Sequence record: OK335775.1
DNA length: 64,000 nt
From: Escherichia phage PSD2002
Direction: 5' to 3' (one strand)
Part shown: positions 27,481 through 40,138 of the stretch, in pieces
Layout: the number at the start of each line of letters is the position of its first letter
How positions within the stretch are numbered: the stretch's first letter is position 1
Notes under the pieces: model-generated
The model's database searches: none
What the model saw: the letters and a program-made list of their open reading frames with translations, nothing else
Told to the model about the DNA's origin: nothing
Translations under genes and position numbers: made by a program

Positions 27481-27810
27481 ATGAAAACATATAACGAATT
27501 TGTACAAACTGAAGCAATTAATGAAGTAGCCATCCCTAAACCGGCTAAAGCTGACGGTACTGAGTACTACCATATTGAAACATCTTTTGATGCAGCTTCA
27601 GATATGGCTAACGGGCTTGGTGATTTCATCCGTCAAGCTAAGTCCGACCTGGCTAAATTTACAAAGACCCTTGATAAAGAGCAAAAGAAACCTTTCTCGG
27701 ATCTGGCTAAAAAACTGGACGCGTTAAATGACAAGGTCTTTAAAGAAGTTTACCACGGTATGATTGGTCTTACCCGTGAATTCAATGCTGAAGTTAAAAA
27801 ACTTCCCTAA
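27481..27810 (+). CDS. ipI: internal protein with capsid-targeting leader (ipI locus)
   Basis: Begins MKTYNEFVQTE, the T4 internal-protein capsid targeting sequence (CTS); position after 57B as T4 ipI. Confidence 0.65.
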   Translation: MKTYNEFVQTEAINEVAIPKPAKADGTEYYHIETSFDAASDMANGLGDFIRQAKSDLAKFTKTLDKEQKKPFSDLAKKLDALNDKVFKEVYHGMIGLTREFNAEVKKLP

Positions 27811-27818
27811 GTACAGAT

Positions 27819-27841
27819 AAGGAGCCACAAAGCTCCTTTTT
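27819..27841 (+). terminator. rho-independent terminator after ipI
   Basis: AAGGAGC-cacaaa-GCTCCTT followed by TTTT. Confidence 0.7.
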
Positions 27842-27858
27842 GTATCTAAACAAAAGGT

Positions 27859-27905
27859 GTTTACTTTCCTGGATAGCCGTGATACTATAGCCCTATCAAA
27901 ACAAA
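27859..27905 (+). promoter_or_regulatory. early promoter cassette (PeSL-like): GTTTAC -35, TGATACTAT extended -10, CCTATCAA
   Basis: GTTTAC 27859-27864, 18-nt spacer, TACTAT 27883-27888; member of the reiterated cassette family. Confidence 0.6.
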
Positions 27906-27925
27906 CTAACCAAACGGAAATCAAA

Positions 27926-28150
27926 ATGAAAACTTATCAAGAATTTATTACCGAAGCTAAAAGACATGAAGATGAACTGCCAATTGTTACAAAAACCTTT
28001 GATGGCACACTGGCTGATTTTAAAAAAGTCCCTAGTGATAAGCTTGCTAAATTGACTGGCTCTATCAATGAAAAAGGTGGCAAGGTCACATTTTCTGCTC
28101 AAGGCACTGCCAATCTTAAAAAACTTTTGAAAGCCGCAGGCGTAGAATAA
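27926..28150 (+). CDS. CTS-bearing small protein (predicted capsid-packaged internal protein)
   Basis: Starts MKTYQEFITEAK; 74 aa; ipI hyperplastic locus. Confidence 0.6.
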   Translation: MKTYQEFITEAKRHEDELPIVTKTFDGTLADFKKVPSDKLAKLTGSINEKGGKVTFSAQGTANLKKLLKAAGVE

Positions 28151-28151
28151 A

Positions 28152-28424
28152 ATGAAATCATACCAAGAATTTATCGCTGAATCTATTCTTAATGAAGAAG
28201 TAAAAATTAACAAATCTGTTAAGACCATGATTGATAATATAAATCATCTCTATAACATCGATTTGACTAATCACGTAACTTTAGGCAATAAGCGAAACTT
28301 TTTTGTATTTGATACTTCAGAACTTGACCAGAATCAAATTAACAATATTGAACGTTTTGCTAATGAAAAAGGGCTGCGCCACGAGACAGCCGGTTATAAA
28401 AAGTATGCAATTTATTTAAAATAA
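28152..28424 (+). CDS. CTS-bearing small protein (predicted capsid-packaged internal protein)
   Basis: Starts MKSYQEFIAESI; 90 aa. Confidence 0.6.
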   Translation: MKSYQEFIAESILNEEVKINKSVKTMIDNINHLYNIDLTNHVTLGNKRNFFVFDTSELDQNQINNIERFANEKGLRHETAGYKKYAIYLK

Positions 28425-28492: not shown

Positions 28493-28678
28493 ATGAAACG
28501 TTGTGAATTAATTAGAAATGTTACTGCACTGGCCGCTGTTACTGCTTTTGGCTTTAGTATGTTTGCAGGATTCATGCTCGATATGCTTTCAACTTCCGAG
28601 AATATAATCTCTTTAGTAGTGGCATTTTTAATTGGTTCAATTTCTTTTGTTATGGATAAAATCTCTAAAGGTGAGTAA
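28493..28678 (+). CDS. small hydrophobic (membrane) protein
   Basis: Start trimmed to ATG after SD GGAGA; hydrophobic stretches. Confidence 0.5.
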   Translation: MKRCELIRNVTALAAVTAFGFSMFAGFMLDMLSTSENIISLVVAFLIGSISFVMDKISKGE

Positions 28679-28679
28679 A

Positions 28680-29060
28680 ATGTATAAAGTGTATGCAGAT
28701 TATCAGGCAAATCCATCTGAAAAACCAGATTGTCAAATTGGGTGGGCACACGACACCCTGCTTAAGGCGGTAGATAAAGCCCAGGAATTAGGGTATAGTT
28801 ATGTGGATATTGTTCAACCCAATGGGACCGTTATTACACTTGAAGAATTCAAGAATATCAAAACAAACTTTTTGCTCTTTGCGGGTGATAACTATTACCC
28901 TCGTGGCGGTTATGCCGACTTAATCGCAAAGGCCGCTACTGAAGATGAACTGCGCGATATCATTAAAGAAAATGAGAATAACCCTCTTTACGGTTCTAAT
29001 CGTTTTGACTGGTGGCAGATTGTTAATGCCAATACCCATACTATTGTAGACGAGGGTTAA
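28680..29060 (+). CDS. hypothetical protein
   Basis: ORF from MYKVYADYQ (start trimmed to ATG after SD GGTGAG). Confidence 0.5.
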   Translation: MYKVYADYQANPSEKPDCQIGWAHDTLLKAVDKAQELGYSYVDIVQPNGTVITLEEFKNIKTNFLLFAGDNYYPRGGYADLIAKAATEDELRDIIKENENNPLYGSNRFDWWQIVNANTHTIVDEG

Positions 29061-29797: not shown

Positions 29798-29874
29798 GGC
29801 CCTGTAGCTCAATGGTTAGCAGCAGTCCCCTCATAAGGGAAAGGTTACCAGTTCAAATCTGGTCCGGGTCACCA
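29798..29874 (+). tRNA. tRNA, anticodon CAU (Met, or Ile if lysidine-modified)
   Basis: Hand-folded cloverleaf: acceptor GGCCCTG/CCGGGTC, D-loop AATGGTTAG, anticodon loop CU-CAU-AA, T-arm ACCAG-TTCAAAT-CTGGT, encoded CCA. Confidence 0.7.
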
Positions 29875-29879
29875 ACTAT

Positions 29880-29954
29880 GTCCCGCTGGTGTAATGGATA
29901 GCATACGATCCTTCTAAGTTTGCGGTCCTGGTTCGATCCCAGGGCGGGATACCA
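29880..29954 (+). tRNA. tRNA-Arg (anticodon UCU)
   Basis: Hand-folded: acceptor GTCCCGC/GCGGGAT, anticodon loop CU-UCU-AA, T-arm CCTGG-TTCGATC-CCAGG, encoded CCA; T4 also encodes tRNA-Arg(UCU). Confidence 0.75.
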
Positions 29955-30364: not shown

Positions 30365-30399
30365 GTATAAATATGTAGTAAACTAACTTAGGAAATAAT

Positions 30400-30864
30400 A
30401 TGAAAACTTACAATGAATTTTTGACTGAACAATCTAGTTCAGATGTAAAAGCCGCTGCTATTGCAGCAATTCAAGCAGGTAAATATTCTTACAAAGACGC
30501 CTCTGATGAAGAACGTTTCCGTTTTATTAAAGATTTTAAAGCCGAAGGTTTTACTAATGCTAATACTGTTAGCCGAGTTTTTAAAAGCCTAGCTGCATCA
30601 GGTGAATTGTTCCAGAAAGCTACAGGTAAAGCACCTGCGTCAAAAGCGGACCCTAAAGCCGCTCAAGAAAAAAATATCGCCAAAGGAATTATTTCTAAGT
30701 ATGAAGCAATTCTTAAAGAGCTTTTAGTAATCAAAACAGAAGGCCAGAAACTGGCACGAGCACATAGCTTCAAAGATAATCCACATGCTCACGACTTAGA
30801 GTATGTTGAAGATATTCAGAAAATCATCAAAGACCGTATCTGGTCTGCTAAACAAATCAAATAA
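30400..30864 (+). CDS. CTS-bearing protein (predicted capsid-packaged internal protein)
   Basis: Starts MKTYNEFLTEQ; 154 aa, Lys/Ala-rich. Confidence 0.6.
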   Translation: MKTYNEFLTEQSSSDVKAAAIAAIQAGKYSYKDASDEERFRFIKDFKAEGFTNANTVSRVFKSLAASGELFQKATGKAPASKADPKAAQEKNIAKGIISKYEAILKELLVIKTEGQKLARAHSFKDNPHAHDLEYVEDIQKIIKDRIWSAKQIK

Positions 30865-33070: not shown

Positions 33071-33416
33071 GCCTAGTAAAACCGACCCTGGTTACGCATT
33101 AGCAGATTATGATATAGCTATTTCCTTATTCCTCGGCATTGCTACTAGTATGACTGCAGGGATAATTGGATTTCTTGTCGGTGGGATTATTAATGGTATG
33201 CCTCGCCATCCGTTTGAAGATATGAGCCTTGCATGGATTTGGGTTCCGGCTTTAATAGGATTTTTTATCCCATGGGTCTTTGATATTGCCCAAACTAATA
33301 AAATAAACAAGCCACGTAAAAAGAGATATGCTTTAGCTATGGCTAATTATAATGAGTATGTAAAACAAACTAAACGTAATGACCTTGAAACCTTTATTAA
33401 GGAATGTAAATCATGA
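33063..33416 (+). CDS. small membrane protein (two predicted TM helices), C-terminus ...FIKECKS
   Basis: ORF from MHKPSKTDP; hydrophobic segments; paralogous C-terminal half to 37287-37874. Confidence 0.5.
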   Translation: MHKPSKTDPGYALADYDIAISLFLGIATSMTAGIIGFLVGGIINGMPRHPFEDMSLAWIWVPALIGFFIPWVFDIAQTNKINKPRKKRYALAMANYNEYVKQTKRNDLETFIKECKS

Positions 33417-33703
33417 ATAAAATTGAAATTGAAATCCCGGAACACAATGACGAGAAATCTGCAGAAAAGGCTATATATGCTCTTCTGAATAAAGCGAATA
33501 CCATCGAATATGAATGTGAAGCTATTGCCGATAAGTATGGTATCCAATTCGGTACCGGTGGTTATGGTTCAGGCCGTACATATTATCCTGTCGGTTATGA
33601 ATGCTCCCAGTGGTTTAAAGATGAAATTGAAAACAACGGCGGTGAAGTTGAAAACGGTGTCGTTACAGTTGGTGCTTGGGTCTCCTCTTCGGCAATGTGC
33701 TAA
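33413..33703 (+). CDS. small protein, WxSSxxC-tail family member 1
   Basis: 96 aa ending ...GAWVSSSAMC; ATGA overlap with upstream gene. Confidence 0.55.
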   Translation: MNKIEIEIPEHNDEKSAEKAIYALLNKANTIEYECEAIADKYGIQFGTGGYGSGRTYYPVGYECSQWFKDEIENNGGEVENGVVTVGAWVSSSAMC

Positions 33704-33712
33704 GGAAACGCT

Positions 33713-33994
33713 ATGATGAATGATTACCGTAAAAATAAAGAGCTGGCTGACGCAGTAAATGATATCCATAAAGCTATTCGTCGTGCCGAGGAAATTGCTA
33801 ACAAATATGAGACTCATTTTAATATATACCCTGCTCGCGGTATGGGCGGTGACTATTATTCTCCTGGCGCCCTGAAAGCCGACCTTGCCCACTGGGAAGA
33901 ATACGGTGAAGCTCAGTACGCTATTGTAAACCAACATGATTACACTACCAGCCTAGAAAATGGTGGTTGGGTGTCCTCTTCTTCTGAATGTTAA
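33713..33994 (+). CDS. small protein, WxSSxxC-tail family member 2
   Basis: 93 aa ending ...GGWVSSSSEC; SD AAGGAAA formed by previous gene's Cys-stop codons. Confidence 0.55.
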   Translation: MMNDYRKNKELADAVNDIHKAIRRAEEIANKYETHFNIYPARGMGGDYYSPGALKADLAHWEEYGEAQYAIVNQHDYTTSLENGGWVSSSSEC

Positions 33995-34003
33995 GGAAAT
34001 AAA

Positions 34004-34216
34004 ATGACTATTGATGAAATTGAAAACCAAATCCGTGAATTAGTACGTAAAGGCCAGTCTGTGGCTGACGAAACGGGTGAAGAGTTCCGTGTTTCTGGTC
34101 GTGGAGAATACATTTCTCCAAAGAACCCGGAATATGATGATTACGAATGGGTCCGTGATGACTACGGTATTCCGGAAGGTGAAGGTTTCTGGTTTACATC
34201 CTCTATGTCTTGCTAA
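34004..34216 (+). CDS. small protein, WxSSxxC-tail family member 3
   Basis: 70 aa ending ...GFWFTSSMSC. Confidence 0.55.
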   Translation: MTIDEIENQIRELVRKGQSVADETGEEFRVSGRGEYISPKNPEYDDYEWVRDDYGIPEGEGFWFTSSMSC

Positions 34217-34227
34217 GGTGATAAAAA

Positions 34228-34452
34228 ATGTCTGATATTAATGAATTAGAAAAAGCTGCACTTGAACTGGCTGCACTGTATAAGAAAGTAAAAGATATGG
34301 CTTCTGCTCAAAGTTTTGGTGTTGAGCTCGACGATTATGACGGTGAAGTTCGTCTCGAAGATTGGCTGAATAGCTCGTGTTATGGCGAAGAAGCTGGTCG
34401 CACCTTCGTTGCTCAGGCCGATGGTAAAATCTGGTATCCGAGCTCATGCTAA
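34228..34452 (+). CDS. small protein, WxSSxxC-tail family member 4
   Basis: 74 aa ending ...KIWYPSSC. Confidence 0.55.
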   Translation: MSDINELEKAALELAALYKKVKDMASAQSFGVELDDYDGEVRLEDWLNSSCYGEEAGRTFVAQADGKIWYPSSC

Positions 34453-38549: not shown

Positions 38550-38577
38550 TATAAATACCTCCTATACTCAGGAGGTA
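38550..38577 (+). promoter_or_regulatory. late promoter (TATAAATA) overlapping a hairpin that sequesters the gene e ribosome-binding site
   Basis: TATAAATA 38550-38557; stem TACCTCC/GGAGGTA (38556-38562 / 38571-38577) contains the SD; same arrangement as described for T4 gene e. Confidence 0.7.
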
Positions 38578-38579
38578 TT

Positions 38580-39074
38580 ATGGATATTTTTGATATGTTA
38601 CGTCAAGACGAAGGTCTTGATTTAAATCTTTATAAAGACACTGAAGGTTATTGGACTATTGGCATTGGCCAATTGATTACTAAGAACCCTTCTAAAGATG
38701 TTGCTCGTGCTGAACTTGATAAGCTTATGGGTCGAGTTTGTAATGGTCGTATTACTATGGCTGAAGCTGAACAACTCTTTAACCGATCGGTTGAAAATGC
38801 TCGTAGAGCTATTCTGCGTAATCCTAAATTGAAACCTGTTTATGATGTACTGGACGAAGTTCGTCGTTGTGCTTTAATTAACATGGTCTTCCAAATGGGT
38901 GAAGCAGGCGTAGCAGGGTTCACCAACTCTTTACGTATGCTCCAACAGAAACGTTGGAACGATGCGGCAGTTAACCTGGCTCAATCCCGTTGGTATAAAC
39001 AAACTCCTAATCGTGCTAAGCGCGTGATTTCAACATTTAAAACAGGTACTTGGAAAGCATATGAAAACTTATAA
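38580..39074 (+). CDS. e: endolysin (T4 lysozyme)
   Basis: 164 aa; [25 protein letters not shown]...[31 protein letters not shown] matches recalled T4 lysozyme. Confidence 0.95.
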
Positions 39075-39459
39075 TGAATTTATCGCAGAGAATGTAATTC
39101 CTGCATCTAAAGAACTTTTGGCGATGTTTGAATCTGAAGAGTTCACTGAAGAACTGAATGAGAACTTGACCCAGGCCACTCCTCAGGTTATTCGCGTTCG
39201 TAATGCCCTTCAGACAGGCATGCAGGCTCGTGTATCTAAGACTATGAAGCTAGCATTCACCACTTCTAAAAATGAAGACTACGGTGATGGTATTGCAATG
39301 AACACTGGACAGTATTATGTTGAGTGGAATGGCGAAACCGGTACTGCTAAGATTCGCCAAACCAGAGCAGCGGGTGGTAAAATGTTGGACATTAAACTGA
39401 ACGTTAAAGAGAAAGACGTCGCGGCTTTGTTCAAGAATTGGATGAAGACCCATAAATAA
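39061..39459 (+). CDS. internal protein with capsid-targeting leader (ipII/ipIII locus)
   Basis: Starts [11 protein letters not shown]; position between e and denV as T4 ipIII/ipII. Confidence 0.65.
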
Positions 39460-39495
39460 GTTTACATCTCCTAGAATTGTGATAGTATATCTACA
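39460..39495 (+). promoter_or_regulatory. early promoter (GTTTAC -35, TGTGATAGTAT -10)
   Basis: GTTTAC 39460-39465, 17-nt spacer, TAGTAT. Confidence 0.5.
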
Positions 39496-39541: not shown

Positions 39542-40138
39542 ATGAAAACGTATAAAGAATTTATCGCCGAAGCTTCTGTAGGAAAGGTCCAAGGCATTAA
39601 TAAAGATGAGTGGACTTACAAAGGAAACGGCGTTGACAACCCAGGAAACGGTTTTGACGCTAAAACAGCTCCTATTGAACGGTACTTGGCTACAAAAGCT
39701 TCCGACTTTAAAGCTTTCGCCTGGGAAGGACTTCGCTGGCGTAACGACCTAAATATTGAAGCTGATGGACTTAAATTTGCCCATATCCAAGATGTTGTTG
39801 CTAGTAACTTGGACGCAGCTTTTGTTAAAGCTGACGGTGACCTTCGTCGCTGGAATTTAAAACTGTTCTCTAAACAGAAAGGCCCGGTGTTTGTACCTAA
39901 AGCAGGTAAATGGACTATTGATAATAAATTGGCTAAAGCAGTTAACTTCGCCGGTCTTGAATTTGCCAAGCATAAATCCGCATGGAAAGGTCTTGATGCA
40001 ATGACTTTCCGTAAAGAATTTGCTGATGTTATGGTTAAAGGCGGCTTTAAGGCAGAGATAGATACCTCTAAAGGTACGTTTAAAGACGCTAATATTCAGT
40101 ACGCTTACGCCGTTGCTAATGCAGCCCGTGGTAATTAA
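39542..40138 (+). CDS. internal protein with capsid-targeting leader (ipII/ipIII locus)
   Basis: Starts MKTYKEFIAEAS; 198 aa. Confidence 0.65.
   Translation: MKTYKEFIAEASVGKVQGINKDEWTYKGNGVDNPGNGFDAKTAPIERYLATKASDFKAFAWEGLRWRNDLNIEADGLKFAHIQDVVASNLDAAFVKADGDLRRWNLKLFSKQKGPVFVPKAGKWTIDNKLAKAVNFAGLEFAKHKSAWKGLDAMTFRKEFADVMVKGGFKAEIDTSKGTFKDANIQYAYAVANAARGN

What the first reader, a model, noticed from the sequence alone, without database searches (positions are those of the whole stretch)
27481..28424. Expanded set of capsid-targeting-sequence proteins (six ORFs starting MK(T/S)Y(N/Q/K)EF)
Six ORFs begin with the T4 internal-protein capsid-targeting leader, which in T4 is cleaved by the prohead protease and directs proteins into the head: 27481 (MKTYNEFVQTE), 27926 (MKTYQEFITE), 28152 (MKSYQEFIAE), 30400 (MKTYNEFLTE), 39061 ([10 protein letters not shown]), 39542 (MKTYKEFIAE). 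T4 has three such proteins, and IPI* is a known injected inhibitor of the GmrSD restriction system. The extra, sequence-diverse members are candidate injected anti-defence effectors of unknown specificity.
Basis: partly seen in the sequence, partly recalled or inferred. Interest (0 to 1): 0.6.

Follow-up and report, generated by a model that had tools for sequence, protein, structure and literature searches.

The report
Six T4-type injected internal proteins
This T4-like coliphage has six small genes whose products begin with the known ten-residue tag that loads proteins into the phage head for injection with the DNA; this is a well-documented, fast-shuffling anti-restriction toolkit, so the set is real but ordinary, although two of the six families are still labelled 'hypothetical' in every database record I read.

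Summary
Exactly six ORFs in the 64-kb window start with MK[TS]YxEF, at the stated coordinates and all on the + strand; 200 shuffles gave none. The window is a Dhakavirus (JS98-like T4 relative). The ORFs sit in the two classic T4 ip loci (57B–trna.4 and e–denV), plus a third site between the tRNA genes and e.8. 39542 is the IpIII orthologue (87% identical in the mature part). 27926 is Ip8 and 28152 is Ip9, both already named. 27481 belongs to a rare family annotated 'internal virion protein'. 30400 (510 phage records) and 39061 (49 records) were annotated 'hypothetical' wherever I looked. Only the leader is shared; the mature parts are unrelated to each other and to T4 IPI and IPII. The concept is established: Repoila 1994 described polymorphic ip genes, Silas 2025 showed that T4 Ip1–3 each block a different GmrSD enzyme, and a 2025 preprint found an McrBC-blocking Ip. 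Six per genome is normal for this genus, since QL01 also has six. A truncated IMG/VR scan yielded 57 mature-domain families. Verdict: a true, well-read feature made of new or unnamed members of a known kind. Targets remain unknown, and packaging and processing were not testable here.

The parts
27481..27810 (+). CTS ORF, 109 aa, MKTYNEFVQTEAINE|V. It belongs to the rare phrog_7857 'internal virion protein' family. It starts 8 nt after the 57B stop codon. Predicted cleavage is after E15.
   Evidence: phrog_7857, E 1.4e-24; only 8 phage records; the [IL]xE site is conserved at the aligned position; exact match to PSD2002 UCR81287.1.
27819..27888 (+). Stem-loop (27819-27838) followed by a T4-type early promoter (TTTACT 27860-27865, 17-nt spacer, TACTAT 27883-27888). 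This is a PeSL-type element and forms the recombination junction between the E33-type and QL01-type cassettes.
   Evidence: The PeSL definition (TTTACW N17 TAYWAT preceded by a stem-loop) is from PMC4122927.
27926..28150 (+). Ip8, 74 aa, MKTYQEFITE|A. The mature part is 64 aa with pI 9.6.
   Evidence: the QL01 homologue is noted as Ip8; phrog_8765; 107 phage records; ip8 in VR5; 96% identical to QL01 Ip8.
28152..28424 (+). Ip9, 90 aa, MKSYQEFIAE|S. The start codon lies 1 nt after the Ip8 stop. The mature domain is predicted as an alpha/beta sandwich.
   Evidence: phrog_7673, E 6.5e-56; 77% identical to RB15 Ip9, Q38376; AF2 mean pLDDT 81.
30366..30373 (+). Canonical T4 late promoter TATAAATA, starting 34 nt before the 30400 ATG.
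30400..30864 (+). CTS ORF, 154 aa, MKTYNEFLTE|Q, in phrog_2280 ('unknown function'). It sits in a third CTS locus between the tRNA genes and e.8. The mature part is 144 aa with pI 9.5.
   Evidence: 510 phage records, hypothetical in every listed row that carries annotation; the leader and an [L]xE site are kept in homologues.
38550..38557 (+). Late promoter TATAAATA upstream of lysozyme gene e (38580-39074). It probably also serves 39061, whose first 14 nt overlap the end of e.
39061..39459 (+). CTS ORF, 132 aa, [10 protein letters not shown]|N, in phrog_15461 ('unknown function'). It lies between e and ipIII; in T4 ipIII directly follows e and ipII lies between ipIII and denV.
   Evidence: 49 phage records, all listed rows hypothetical; leader invariant, linker variable, core conserved; AF2 mean pLDDT 53, not usable.
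39461..39488 (+). T4-type early promoter (TTTACA, 16-nt spacer, TAGTAT, with TG before the second hexamer) upstream of the IpIII gene.
39542..40138 (+). IpIII orthologue, 198 aa, MKTYKEFIAE|A. The mature part is 188 aa with pI 9.5.
   Evidence: phrog_5341, E 6.6e-115; 87% identical to T4 IPIII, E 1e-122; 90% identical to VR5 ip3.

Best explanation
The six ORFs encode T4-type internal proteins (Ips). Each has a ~10-residue N-terminal capsid-targeting sequence, MK(T/S)YxEF(I/L/V)xE. By analogy with T4 IPIII, this leader would direct the protein into the scaffolding core of the assembling prohead. The prohead protease gp21 would then cut after the Glu of the (L/I)-x-E site. That is after residue 10 in five proteins and probably after E15 in 27481. 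The mature 6.8-20.7 kDa, mostly basic proteins would remain in the head and be ejected into the cell with the DNA. There they would most likely bind and block host nucleases that attack the phage's modified DNA (type IV restriction: GmrSD-like or McrBC-like) or other first-line defences, each protein with a narrow specificity. The genes are swapped between phages as cassettes at conserved terminator/early-promoter elements (PeSLs). Shown here: the motif, its significance, the loci, the homologies, the unrelatedness of the mature parts, and the mosaic junction. Inferred: packaging, cleavage, injection, and any anti-defence target. IpIII has the strongest inference because it is 87% identical to T4 Ip3, a demonstrated inhibitor of the ECOR17 GmrSD system.
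For: There are six motif ORFs in the window and none in 200 shuffles. Y4 and F7 are invariant, and five of six have [IL]8/E10. These are the positions reported as critical for targeting and processing (PMC9026906; sequences). The genomic positions match the T4 ipI and ipII/ipIII loci. Four of the six match PHROG families annotated as internal virion or head protein, and 39542 is 87% identical to T4 IPIII. 28152 is 77% identical to RB15 Ip9. The leader is invariant across homologues of 39061 that are only about 56-57% identical overall (alignment identity), while the adjacent linker varies. The [IL]xE site is conserved in the 27481 family, and the leader plus an LxE site is kept in the 30400 family. 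Profile-profile comparison aligns only the leader between families. Mature parts are small and mostly basic, like T4 IPI*, IPII* and IPIII*. A late promoter lies directly upstream of 30400, and another lies upstream of e/39061. The closest RefSeq relative, QL01, encodes the gp67/gp68/gp21 protease/gp22 core cassette. On function, T4 Ip1, Ip2 and Ip3 each inhibit a distinct GmrSD enzyme (PMC12373910). IPIII lacking its CTS still works when expressed in the host (PMC9391042). The CTS protein Bas37_0260 inhibits McrBC (10.1101/2025.11.20.689424). The cassette junction sits at a stem-loop plus early promoter shared with E33 and QL01, matching the PeSL description (PMC4122927).
Against: I found no virion proteomics or N-terminal sequencing for this phage or its genus. 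27481 deviates from the canonical leader (V8, T10) and its mature part is not basic (pI 7.0). Ip8 and Ip9 lie behind a terminator-like stem-loop and an early-type promoter, with no canonical late promoter nearby, so late synthesis is not shown. Ip4-10, which include Ip8 and Ip9, gave no reproducible inhibition of 15 GmrSD groups. An anti-GmrSD role for these is therefore unsupported and their targets are unknown. No mature domain has a functionally informative sequence or fold match. Some internal proteins also act in head assembly, as reported for the T4 IPIII mutant (PMC9026906).
Confidence: 0.8

Rival explanations
1. Some or all of the non-IpIII proteins are mainly structural cargo rather than defence inhibitors. 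They would be basic proteins that help core or head assembly, or neutralise and organise packaged DNA, and their variability would reflect weak constraint.
For: T4 IPs are basic, are estimated at about 360-370 copies each per head, bind DNA at low salt, and an IPIII mutant has slower head assembly and a reduced burst (PMC9026906). Four of the five non-IpIII mature parts here are basic: Ip8, 30400 and 39061 clearly (pI 8.9-9.6), Ip9 only weakly (pI 8.0). Ip4-10 showed no reproducible anti-GmrSD activity.
Against: All three T4 IPs, and Bas37_0260, now have specific defence targets. Mature domains are well conserved within each family (87-88% mean column identity for Ip9 and 39061), which argues for specific folds rather than generic polycations. 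27481 is neutral and Ip9 is nearly neutral. The Ip9 domain also exists without a leader in phages that lack the T4 head system.
Confidence: 0.15
2. One or more of the ORFs, most plausibly 27481 or the early-promoter-driven Ip8/Ip9, carry a relic leader. They would not be packaged and would act as ordinary early cytoplasmic proteins.
For: 27481 has a non-canonical leader with V8 and T10. Ip8 and Ip9 follow a stem-loop and an early-type promoter, with no TATAAATA nearby. Leaderless Ip9-domain proteins exist in other phages.
Against: The leader is kept intact in distant homologues of every family. Synonymous variation shows selection on the peptide. T4 IPI also has a longer, divergent 19-residue propeptide, yet it is packaged.
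Confidence: 0.05

Closest known systems
T4 IPIII (Ip3), inhibitor of the two-gene GmrSD system of E. coli ECOR17
   Same: 39542 is 87% identical over the mature part. It has the same leader apart from Q5K, the same position next to denV, and similar size and charge.
   Different: There is a short insertion near residues 29-35 and about 13% substitutions. Whether the same GmrSD variant is blocked is untested.
T4 IPI* (Ip1, GmrSD-CT596 inhibitor) and IPII (Ip2, GmrSD-ECOR21/BrxU inhibitor)
   Same: They share the delivery principle (leader, gp21 cleavage, injection) and the genomic loci. 27481, Ip8 and Ip9 occupy the ipI slot after 57B. 39061 sits in the e-ipIII-ipII-denV block.
Polymorphic Ip genes of T-even phages (Ip4-Ip10 and above; Repoila et al. 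1994), including Ip7, Ip8 and Ip9
   Same: 27926 is Ip8 (96% identical to QL01 Ip8). 28152 is Ip9 (77% identical to RB15 Ip9, 100% to QL01 Ip9).
   Different: 27481, 30400 and 39061 carry no Ip number in any record seen. 30400 and 39061 were 'hypothetical' in every annotated record and cluster member I read.
Bas37_0260, a CTS protein at the ipI locus of Tequatrovirus Bas37 that inhibits McrBC (bioRxiv 10.1101/2025.11.20.689424)
   Same: It has the same leader (MKTYQEFIAE), the same locus and a small size.
   Different: It shows no similarity beyond the leader to any of the six window proteins.
Phage P1 Dar anti-restriction proteins packaged in the head (recalled from my own knowledge, not tested here)
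   Same: The logic is the same: anti-restriction proteins are pre-loaded in the capsid and delivered with the DNA.
   Different: The proteins and packaging route are unrelated, and there is no CTS/gp21 system.

Membership tests
T4-type CTS internal proteins (Ip) | N-terminal capsid-targeting sequence MK(T/S)(Y/F)xEF, with the residues critical for targeting at positions 4 and 7 | tested here: met
   All six ORFs have the motif, with Y4 and F7 invariant. Positional requirements are from PMC9026906.
T4-type CTS internal proteins (Ip) | gp21 prohead-protease site (L/I)-x-E at the end of the leader | tested here: met
   The site is I/L-x-E10 in five ORFs. In 27481 it is I13-N14-E15, which is conserved in homologues and comparable to the 19-residue T4 IPI propeptide. 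Only the sequence motif was tested; cleavage was not observed.
T4-type CTS internal proteins (Ip) | Encoded in the variable ip loci (57B-trna.4 and e-denV) | tested here: met
   Five of the six lie there. 30400 lies in a third variable site between the tRNA genes and e.8, which also holds CTS ORFs in IME08 and Bas37.
T4-type CTS internal proteins (Ip) | Phage encodes the scaffolding core and gp21 protease that read the leader | tested here: inconclusive
   These genes are not inside the 64-kb window. The closest RefSeq relative, QL01, has the portal, gp67, gp68, head maturation protease, scaffold and major head protein genes.
T4-type CTS internal proteins (Ip) | Present in mature virions in processed form and ejected into the host | not testable with these tools
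   This needs virion mass spectrometry and injection assays. I found no proteomics for this genus.
GmrSD (type IV restriction) inhibitors Ip1/Ip2/Ip3 | Sequence homology of the mature part to a demonstrated inhibitor | tested here: met
   This is met only for 39542 (87% identical to T4 IPIII). It is not met for the other five.
GmrSD (type IV restriction) inhibitors Ip1/Ip2/Ip3 | Demonstrated inhibition of a GmrSD enzyme | not testable with these tools
   Published tests of ip4-10, which include Ip8 and Ip9, against 15 GmrSD groups gave no reproducible interaction (PMC12373910, Supplementary Fig. 9).
PeSL-mediated cassette shuffling (Arbiol 2010; Comeau 2014) | A stem-loop followed by an early promoter (TTTACW N17 TAYWAT) at the boundary of an indel between close relatives | tested here: met
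   The stem-loop is at 27819-27838, followed by TTTACT, a 17-nt spacer and TACTAT. Sequence identity switches from E33-type to QL01-type within the shared promoter and 5'UTR.

The most novel reading that the evidence does not exclude
30400 (phrog_2280; Tequatro-, Mosig- and Dhakaviruses) and 39061 (phrog_15461; Dhakavirus, Klebsiella, Serratia and Erwinia phages) would be two unnamed families of injected effectors, and the tRNA-e.8 interval would be a third Ip hotspot that published descriptions ('two Ip loci') omit. Dhakaviruses are predicted to carry arabinosylated rather than glucosylated cytosine derivatives (PMC13326640). Some of these proteins, together with Ip8, Ip9 and 27481, could therefore block defence systems other than the GmrSD variants already tested. 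The Ip9 domain occurs without a leader in a 44-kb phage and fused inside giant Ackermannviridae proteins. That points to an effector domain shared across phage families and delivered by different routes.
Probability: 0.35. Interest if true: 0.45.

Novelty: new member of a known kind. Interest (0 to 1): 0.3.

Why it matters
Injected internal proteins act before any phage gene is expressed, so they decide whether modified phage DNA survives type IV restriction and therefore help set host range. All four characterised examples (T4 Ip1-3 and Bas37_0260) proved to be highly specific nuclease inhibitors. Each uncharacterised Ip family is therefore a ready-made probe for a host defence variant, and is relevant to choosing or engineering therapeutic T4-like phages. 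This window adds nothing conceptually new. It does give a concrete shortlist (27481, Ip8, Ip9, 30400, 39061), flags two widespread families that annotation pipelines miss, and shows a clean example of cassette exchange at a PeSL element.

Tried and rejected
- **Pfam and PADLOC:** scans of all six proteins gave only sub-threshold noise.
- **PDB sequence search:** there were no hits for Ip9 and only E>0.01 hits for the others. 39061 gave M.HhaI residues 189-275 at E 0.011 as a single sequence, but its family profile instead gave flagellin D3 at E 0.02. The two results are inconsistent, so I treat them as chance.
- **39061 structure:** the AF2 model is too poor (mean pLDDT 53) for a fold search. 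The afdb50 library was unavailable.
- **Exhaustive HMMER search with Ip9:** it found only 11 clusters at 50% identity (the ten small ones I read look phage-type), with no functional clue.
- **Remote homology between Ip families:** hhalign aligned only the leader.
- **Match to the McrBC inhibitor Bas37_0260:** none of the six window proteins matches it beyond the leader.
- **'Six is an unusual expansion':** rejected, because QL01 also has six, IME08 and Bas37 have four CTS ORFs each in the stretches examined (57B to e.8 and beyond), and phage Marfa has four leader-pattern matches in one 8.8-kb stretch.
- **Literature search for virion proteomics of Dhakaviruses:** nothing usable was found. Repoila 1994 and Rifat 2008 are not held in the library.

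Full report
**Observation.** A six-frame search of the 64-kb window (39.3% G+C) finds exactly six ORFs beginning MK[TS]Y.EF. They are all on the + strand, at 27481 (109 aa), 27926 (74 aa), 28152 (90 aa), 30400 (154 aa), 39061 (132 aa) and 39542 (198 aa). A looser scan for 10-mers with at least 5 of 10 identities to MKTYQEFIAE adds no further ORF start. 200 shuffles of the window produced none. The six leaders use different synonymous codons, so the peptide itself is conserved. The reported coordinates and sequences are correct.

**What the window is.** Megablast places it in the genus Dhakavirus, the JS98-like T4 relatives. The best matches are E33, QL01 and WG01 at 97-99% identity over the aligned parts. 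The exact 27481 protein is recorded for Escherichia phage PSD2002.

The gene order matches the T4 map. It runs gene 3, gene 1 (dNMP kinase), 57A, 57B, [27481, 27926, 28152], trna.4/.3/.2, tRNA-Met, tRNA-Arg, [30400], e.8 ... nudE, e, [39061, 39542], denV. Five ORFs therefore lie in the two classic ip loci. 30400 lies in a third variable interval between the tRNA genes and e.8, which is empty in T4. That interval holds other CTS ORFs in IME08 (orf129, 205 aa) and in Bas37 (bas37_0243 and bas37_0244).

**Identity of each protein.**
- 39542 is the IpIII orthologue: 87% identical to T4 IPIII in the mature part (E 1e-122), in phrog_5341.
- 27926 is Ip8: 96% identical to the QL01 protein noted as Ip8, called ip8 in VR5, in phrog_8765, found in 107 phage records.
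- 28152 is Ip9: identical to QL01 Ip9 and 77% identical to RB15 Ip9 (UniProt Q38376), in phrog_7673, found in 192 records.
- 27481 belongs to phrog_7857 ('internal virion protein'). It occurs in only 8 of 50,697 phage records: E33, an Enterobacter phage (two records), a Citrobacter phage (two records), two Providencia phages and a Morganella phage.
- 30400 (phrog_2280) occurs in 510 records across Tequatro-, Mosig- and Dhakaviruses.
- 39061 (phrog_15461) occurs in 49 records of Dhakavirus, Klebsiella, Serratia and Erwinia phages.

In every annotated row and cluster member I read, 30400 and 39061 are 'hypothetical' or 'uncharacterized'.

Outside the leader the six proteins are unrelated to each other and to T4 IPI and IPII, both by BLASTP and by profile-profile comparison. 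None matches the McrBC inhibitor Bas37_0260.

**Anatomy of the leader.** Published mutagenesis of IPIII maps targeting to residues 4 and 7 and processing to residues 8 and 10 (PMC9026906). All six ORFs have Y4 and F7. Five have [I/L]8-x-E10, the gp21 site.

27481 has V8 and T10, and its only [LIV]xE site is I13-N14-E15. That site is conserved as LNE or LEE in homologues from IME523 and Morganella phage Rgz1, while the intervening residues vary. I therefore predict cleavage after E15, a longer propeptide like the 19-residue one of T4 IPI.

In the 39061 family the leader is invariant across members down to about 56-57% overall identity, followed by an indel-rich acidic linker and a conserved core. 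Predicted mature products are 6.8-20.7 kDa. Four are clearly basic (pI 8.9-9.6), Ip9 is only weakly so (pI 8.0), and 27481 is neutral (pI 7.0).

**Expression signals.**
- A canonical late promoter TATAAATA starts 34 nt upstream of 30400.
- Another precedes lysozyme gene e, whose last 14 nt overlap the start of 39061.
- IpIII and Ip8 are preceded by T4-type early promoters of the form TTTAC(A/T), 16-17 nt, TA(G/C)TAT.
- A stem-loop follows 27481.

Late synthesis of Ip8 and Ip9 is therefore not evident from consensus motifs alone.

**Mechanism (inferred).** By analogy with T4, the leader docks the protein into the gp22 scaffolding core. gp21 then removes it, the mature protein stays in the head, and it is ejected with the DNA (T4 copy numbers are estimated at about 360 per species) (PMC9026906 and PMC3012670). 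The core/protease cassette is outside the window but is present in QL01.

On function, T4 Ip1, Ip2 and Ip3 each block a different GmrSD type IV nuclease without cross-protection (PMC12373910). IPIII lacking its leader works from a plasmid (PMC9391042). Another CTS protein, Bas37_0260, blocks McrBC (10.1101/2025.11.20.689424). The most likely role of the uncharacterised proteins is thus specific inhibition of modification-dependent nucleases or other early defences.

Against a GmrSD target for Ip8 and Ip9, ip4-10 gave no reproducible inhibition of 15 GmrSD groups. Dhakaviruses are predicted to carry arabinosylated cytosine derivatives (PMC13326640), so the relevant nucleases may differ. This last point is inference.

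**Evolutionary context.** The ipI locus of the window is a mosaic.
- From 57B through 27481, the stem-loop and the early promoter, it is near-identical to E33, which lacks Ip8 and Ip9.
- From the shared promoter and 5'UTR onward it is QL01-type, and QL01 lacks 27481.
- The junction has the architecture of a PeSL element: a stem-loop followed by TTTACW, N17, TAYWAT. PeSLs have been proposed to mediate cassette shuffling in T4-like phages, including at the IP locus (PMC4122927).

Six CTS genes per genome is not unusual. QL01 also has six: Ip8, Ip9, the 30400 type, the 39061 type, IpIII, and Ip7 after denV. They contain 183 CTS ORFs that fall into 57 mature-domain clusters, and each of the six window proteins has its own cluster.

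**Verdict.** The phenomenon has been known since 1994 and is under active study. What is modestly new is the recognition that two widespread 'hypothetical' families (30400 and 39061) carry the leader, that the tRNA-e.8 interval is a further Ip site, and that the Ip9 domain also circulates outside T4-like phages without the leader. I rate it as a new member of a known kind, with interest 0.3.

Noticed in passing
window 28152-28424; L006:2507-2725; L013:4278-6545; L014:2688-6062: The mature Ip9 domain (phrog_7673) also occurs without a CTS outside T4-like phages. It is a stand-alone 72-aa ORF (53% identical) in the early region of the 44.5-kb phage SHAK7858. It is also embedded near the C-terminus of large phrog_3867 proteins of unknown function in Kuttervirus aagejoakim (755 aa, residues 678-737) and phage LHE287 (1124 aa, residues 928-981). 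An exhaustive HMMER search found both CTS-bearing and leaderless small versions.
   Followed up: partly
window 30366-30864; L002:5249-5866; L009:529-1691: The interval between the tRNA genes and e.8 is a third site for CTS ORFs: 30400 here, a different 205-aa CTS ORF in IME08, and two (187 and 157 aa) in Bas37. T4 has none there, and the recent literature I read speaks of 'two Ip loci'.
   Followed up: partly
window 27811-27925: A PeSL-type element (stem-loop 27819-27838 plus early promoter TTTACT, 17-nt spacer, TACTAT) marks the exact switch from E33-like to QL01-like sequence. It is a clean example of cassette exchange at a conserved regulatory element.
   Followed up: yes
window 39061-39074: The first codons of the 39061 leader (ATGAAAACTTATAA) overlap, in another frame, the last codons and stop of lysozyme gene e (...A Y E N L stop). 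The gene abuts e with a 14-nt overlap, whereas in T4 ipIII starts 88 nt downstream of e.
   Followed up: no
window 33413-34452: Four tandem small paralogous ORFs (96, 93, 70 and 74 aa) all match the C-terminal part of phrog_899 (unknown function). They share a C-terminal W-x-(S/T)-S-S-x-x-C-like ending.
   Followed up: partly
loci L015-L134 (IMG/VR scan): A truncated scan for the CTS-coding pattern recovered 183 CTS ORFs in 57 mature-domain clusters. Some are unusually large (406, 492 and up to 610 aa) and may be packaged enzymes. The hits include metagenomic contigs as well as cultured-phage genomes.
   Followed up: partly
window 29798-29954: The window has only two tRNA genes (Met-CAT and Arg-TCT), where T4 has eight plus two small stable RNAs. 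IME08 has three and Bas37 ten at the same place.
   Followed up: no
protein P0009, compared with window 28632-29060 and 30400-30864: A 94-aa metagenomic protein joins the middle of trna.3 to the last ~30 residues of the 30400-type protein. This looks like a deletion that removed trna.2, the tRNAs and most of the Ip gene.
   Followed up: no
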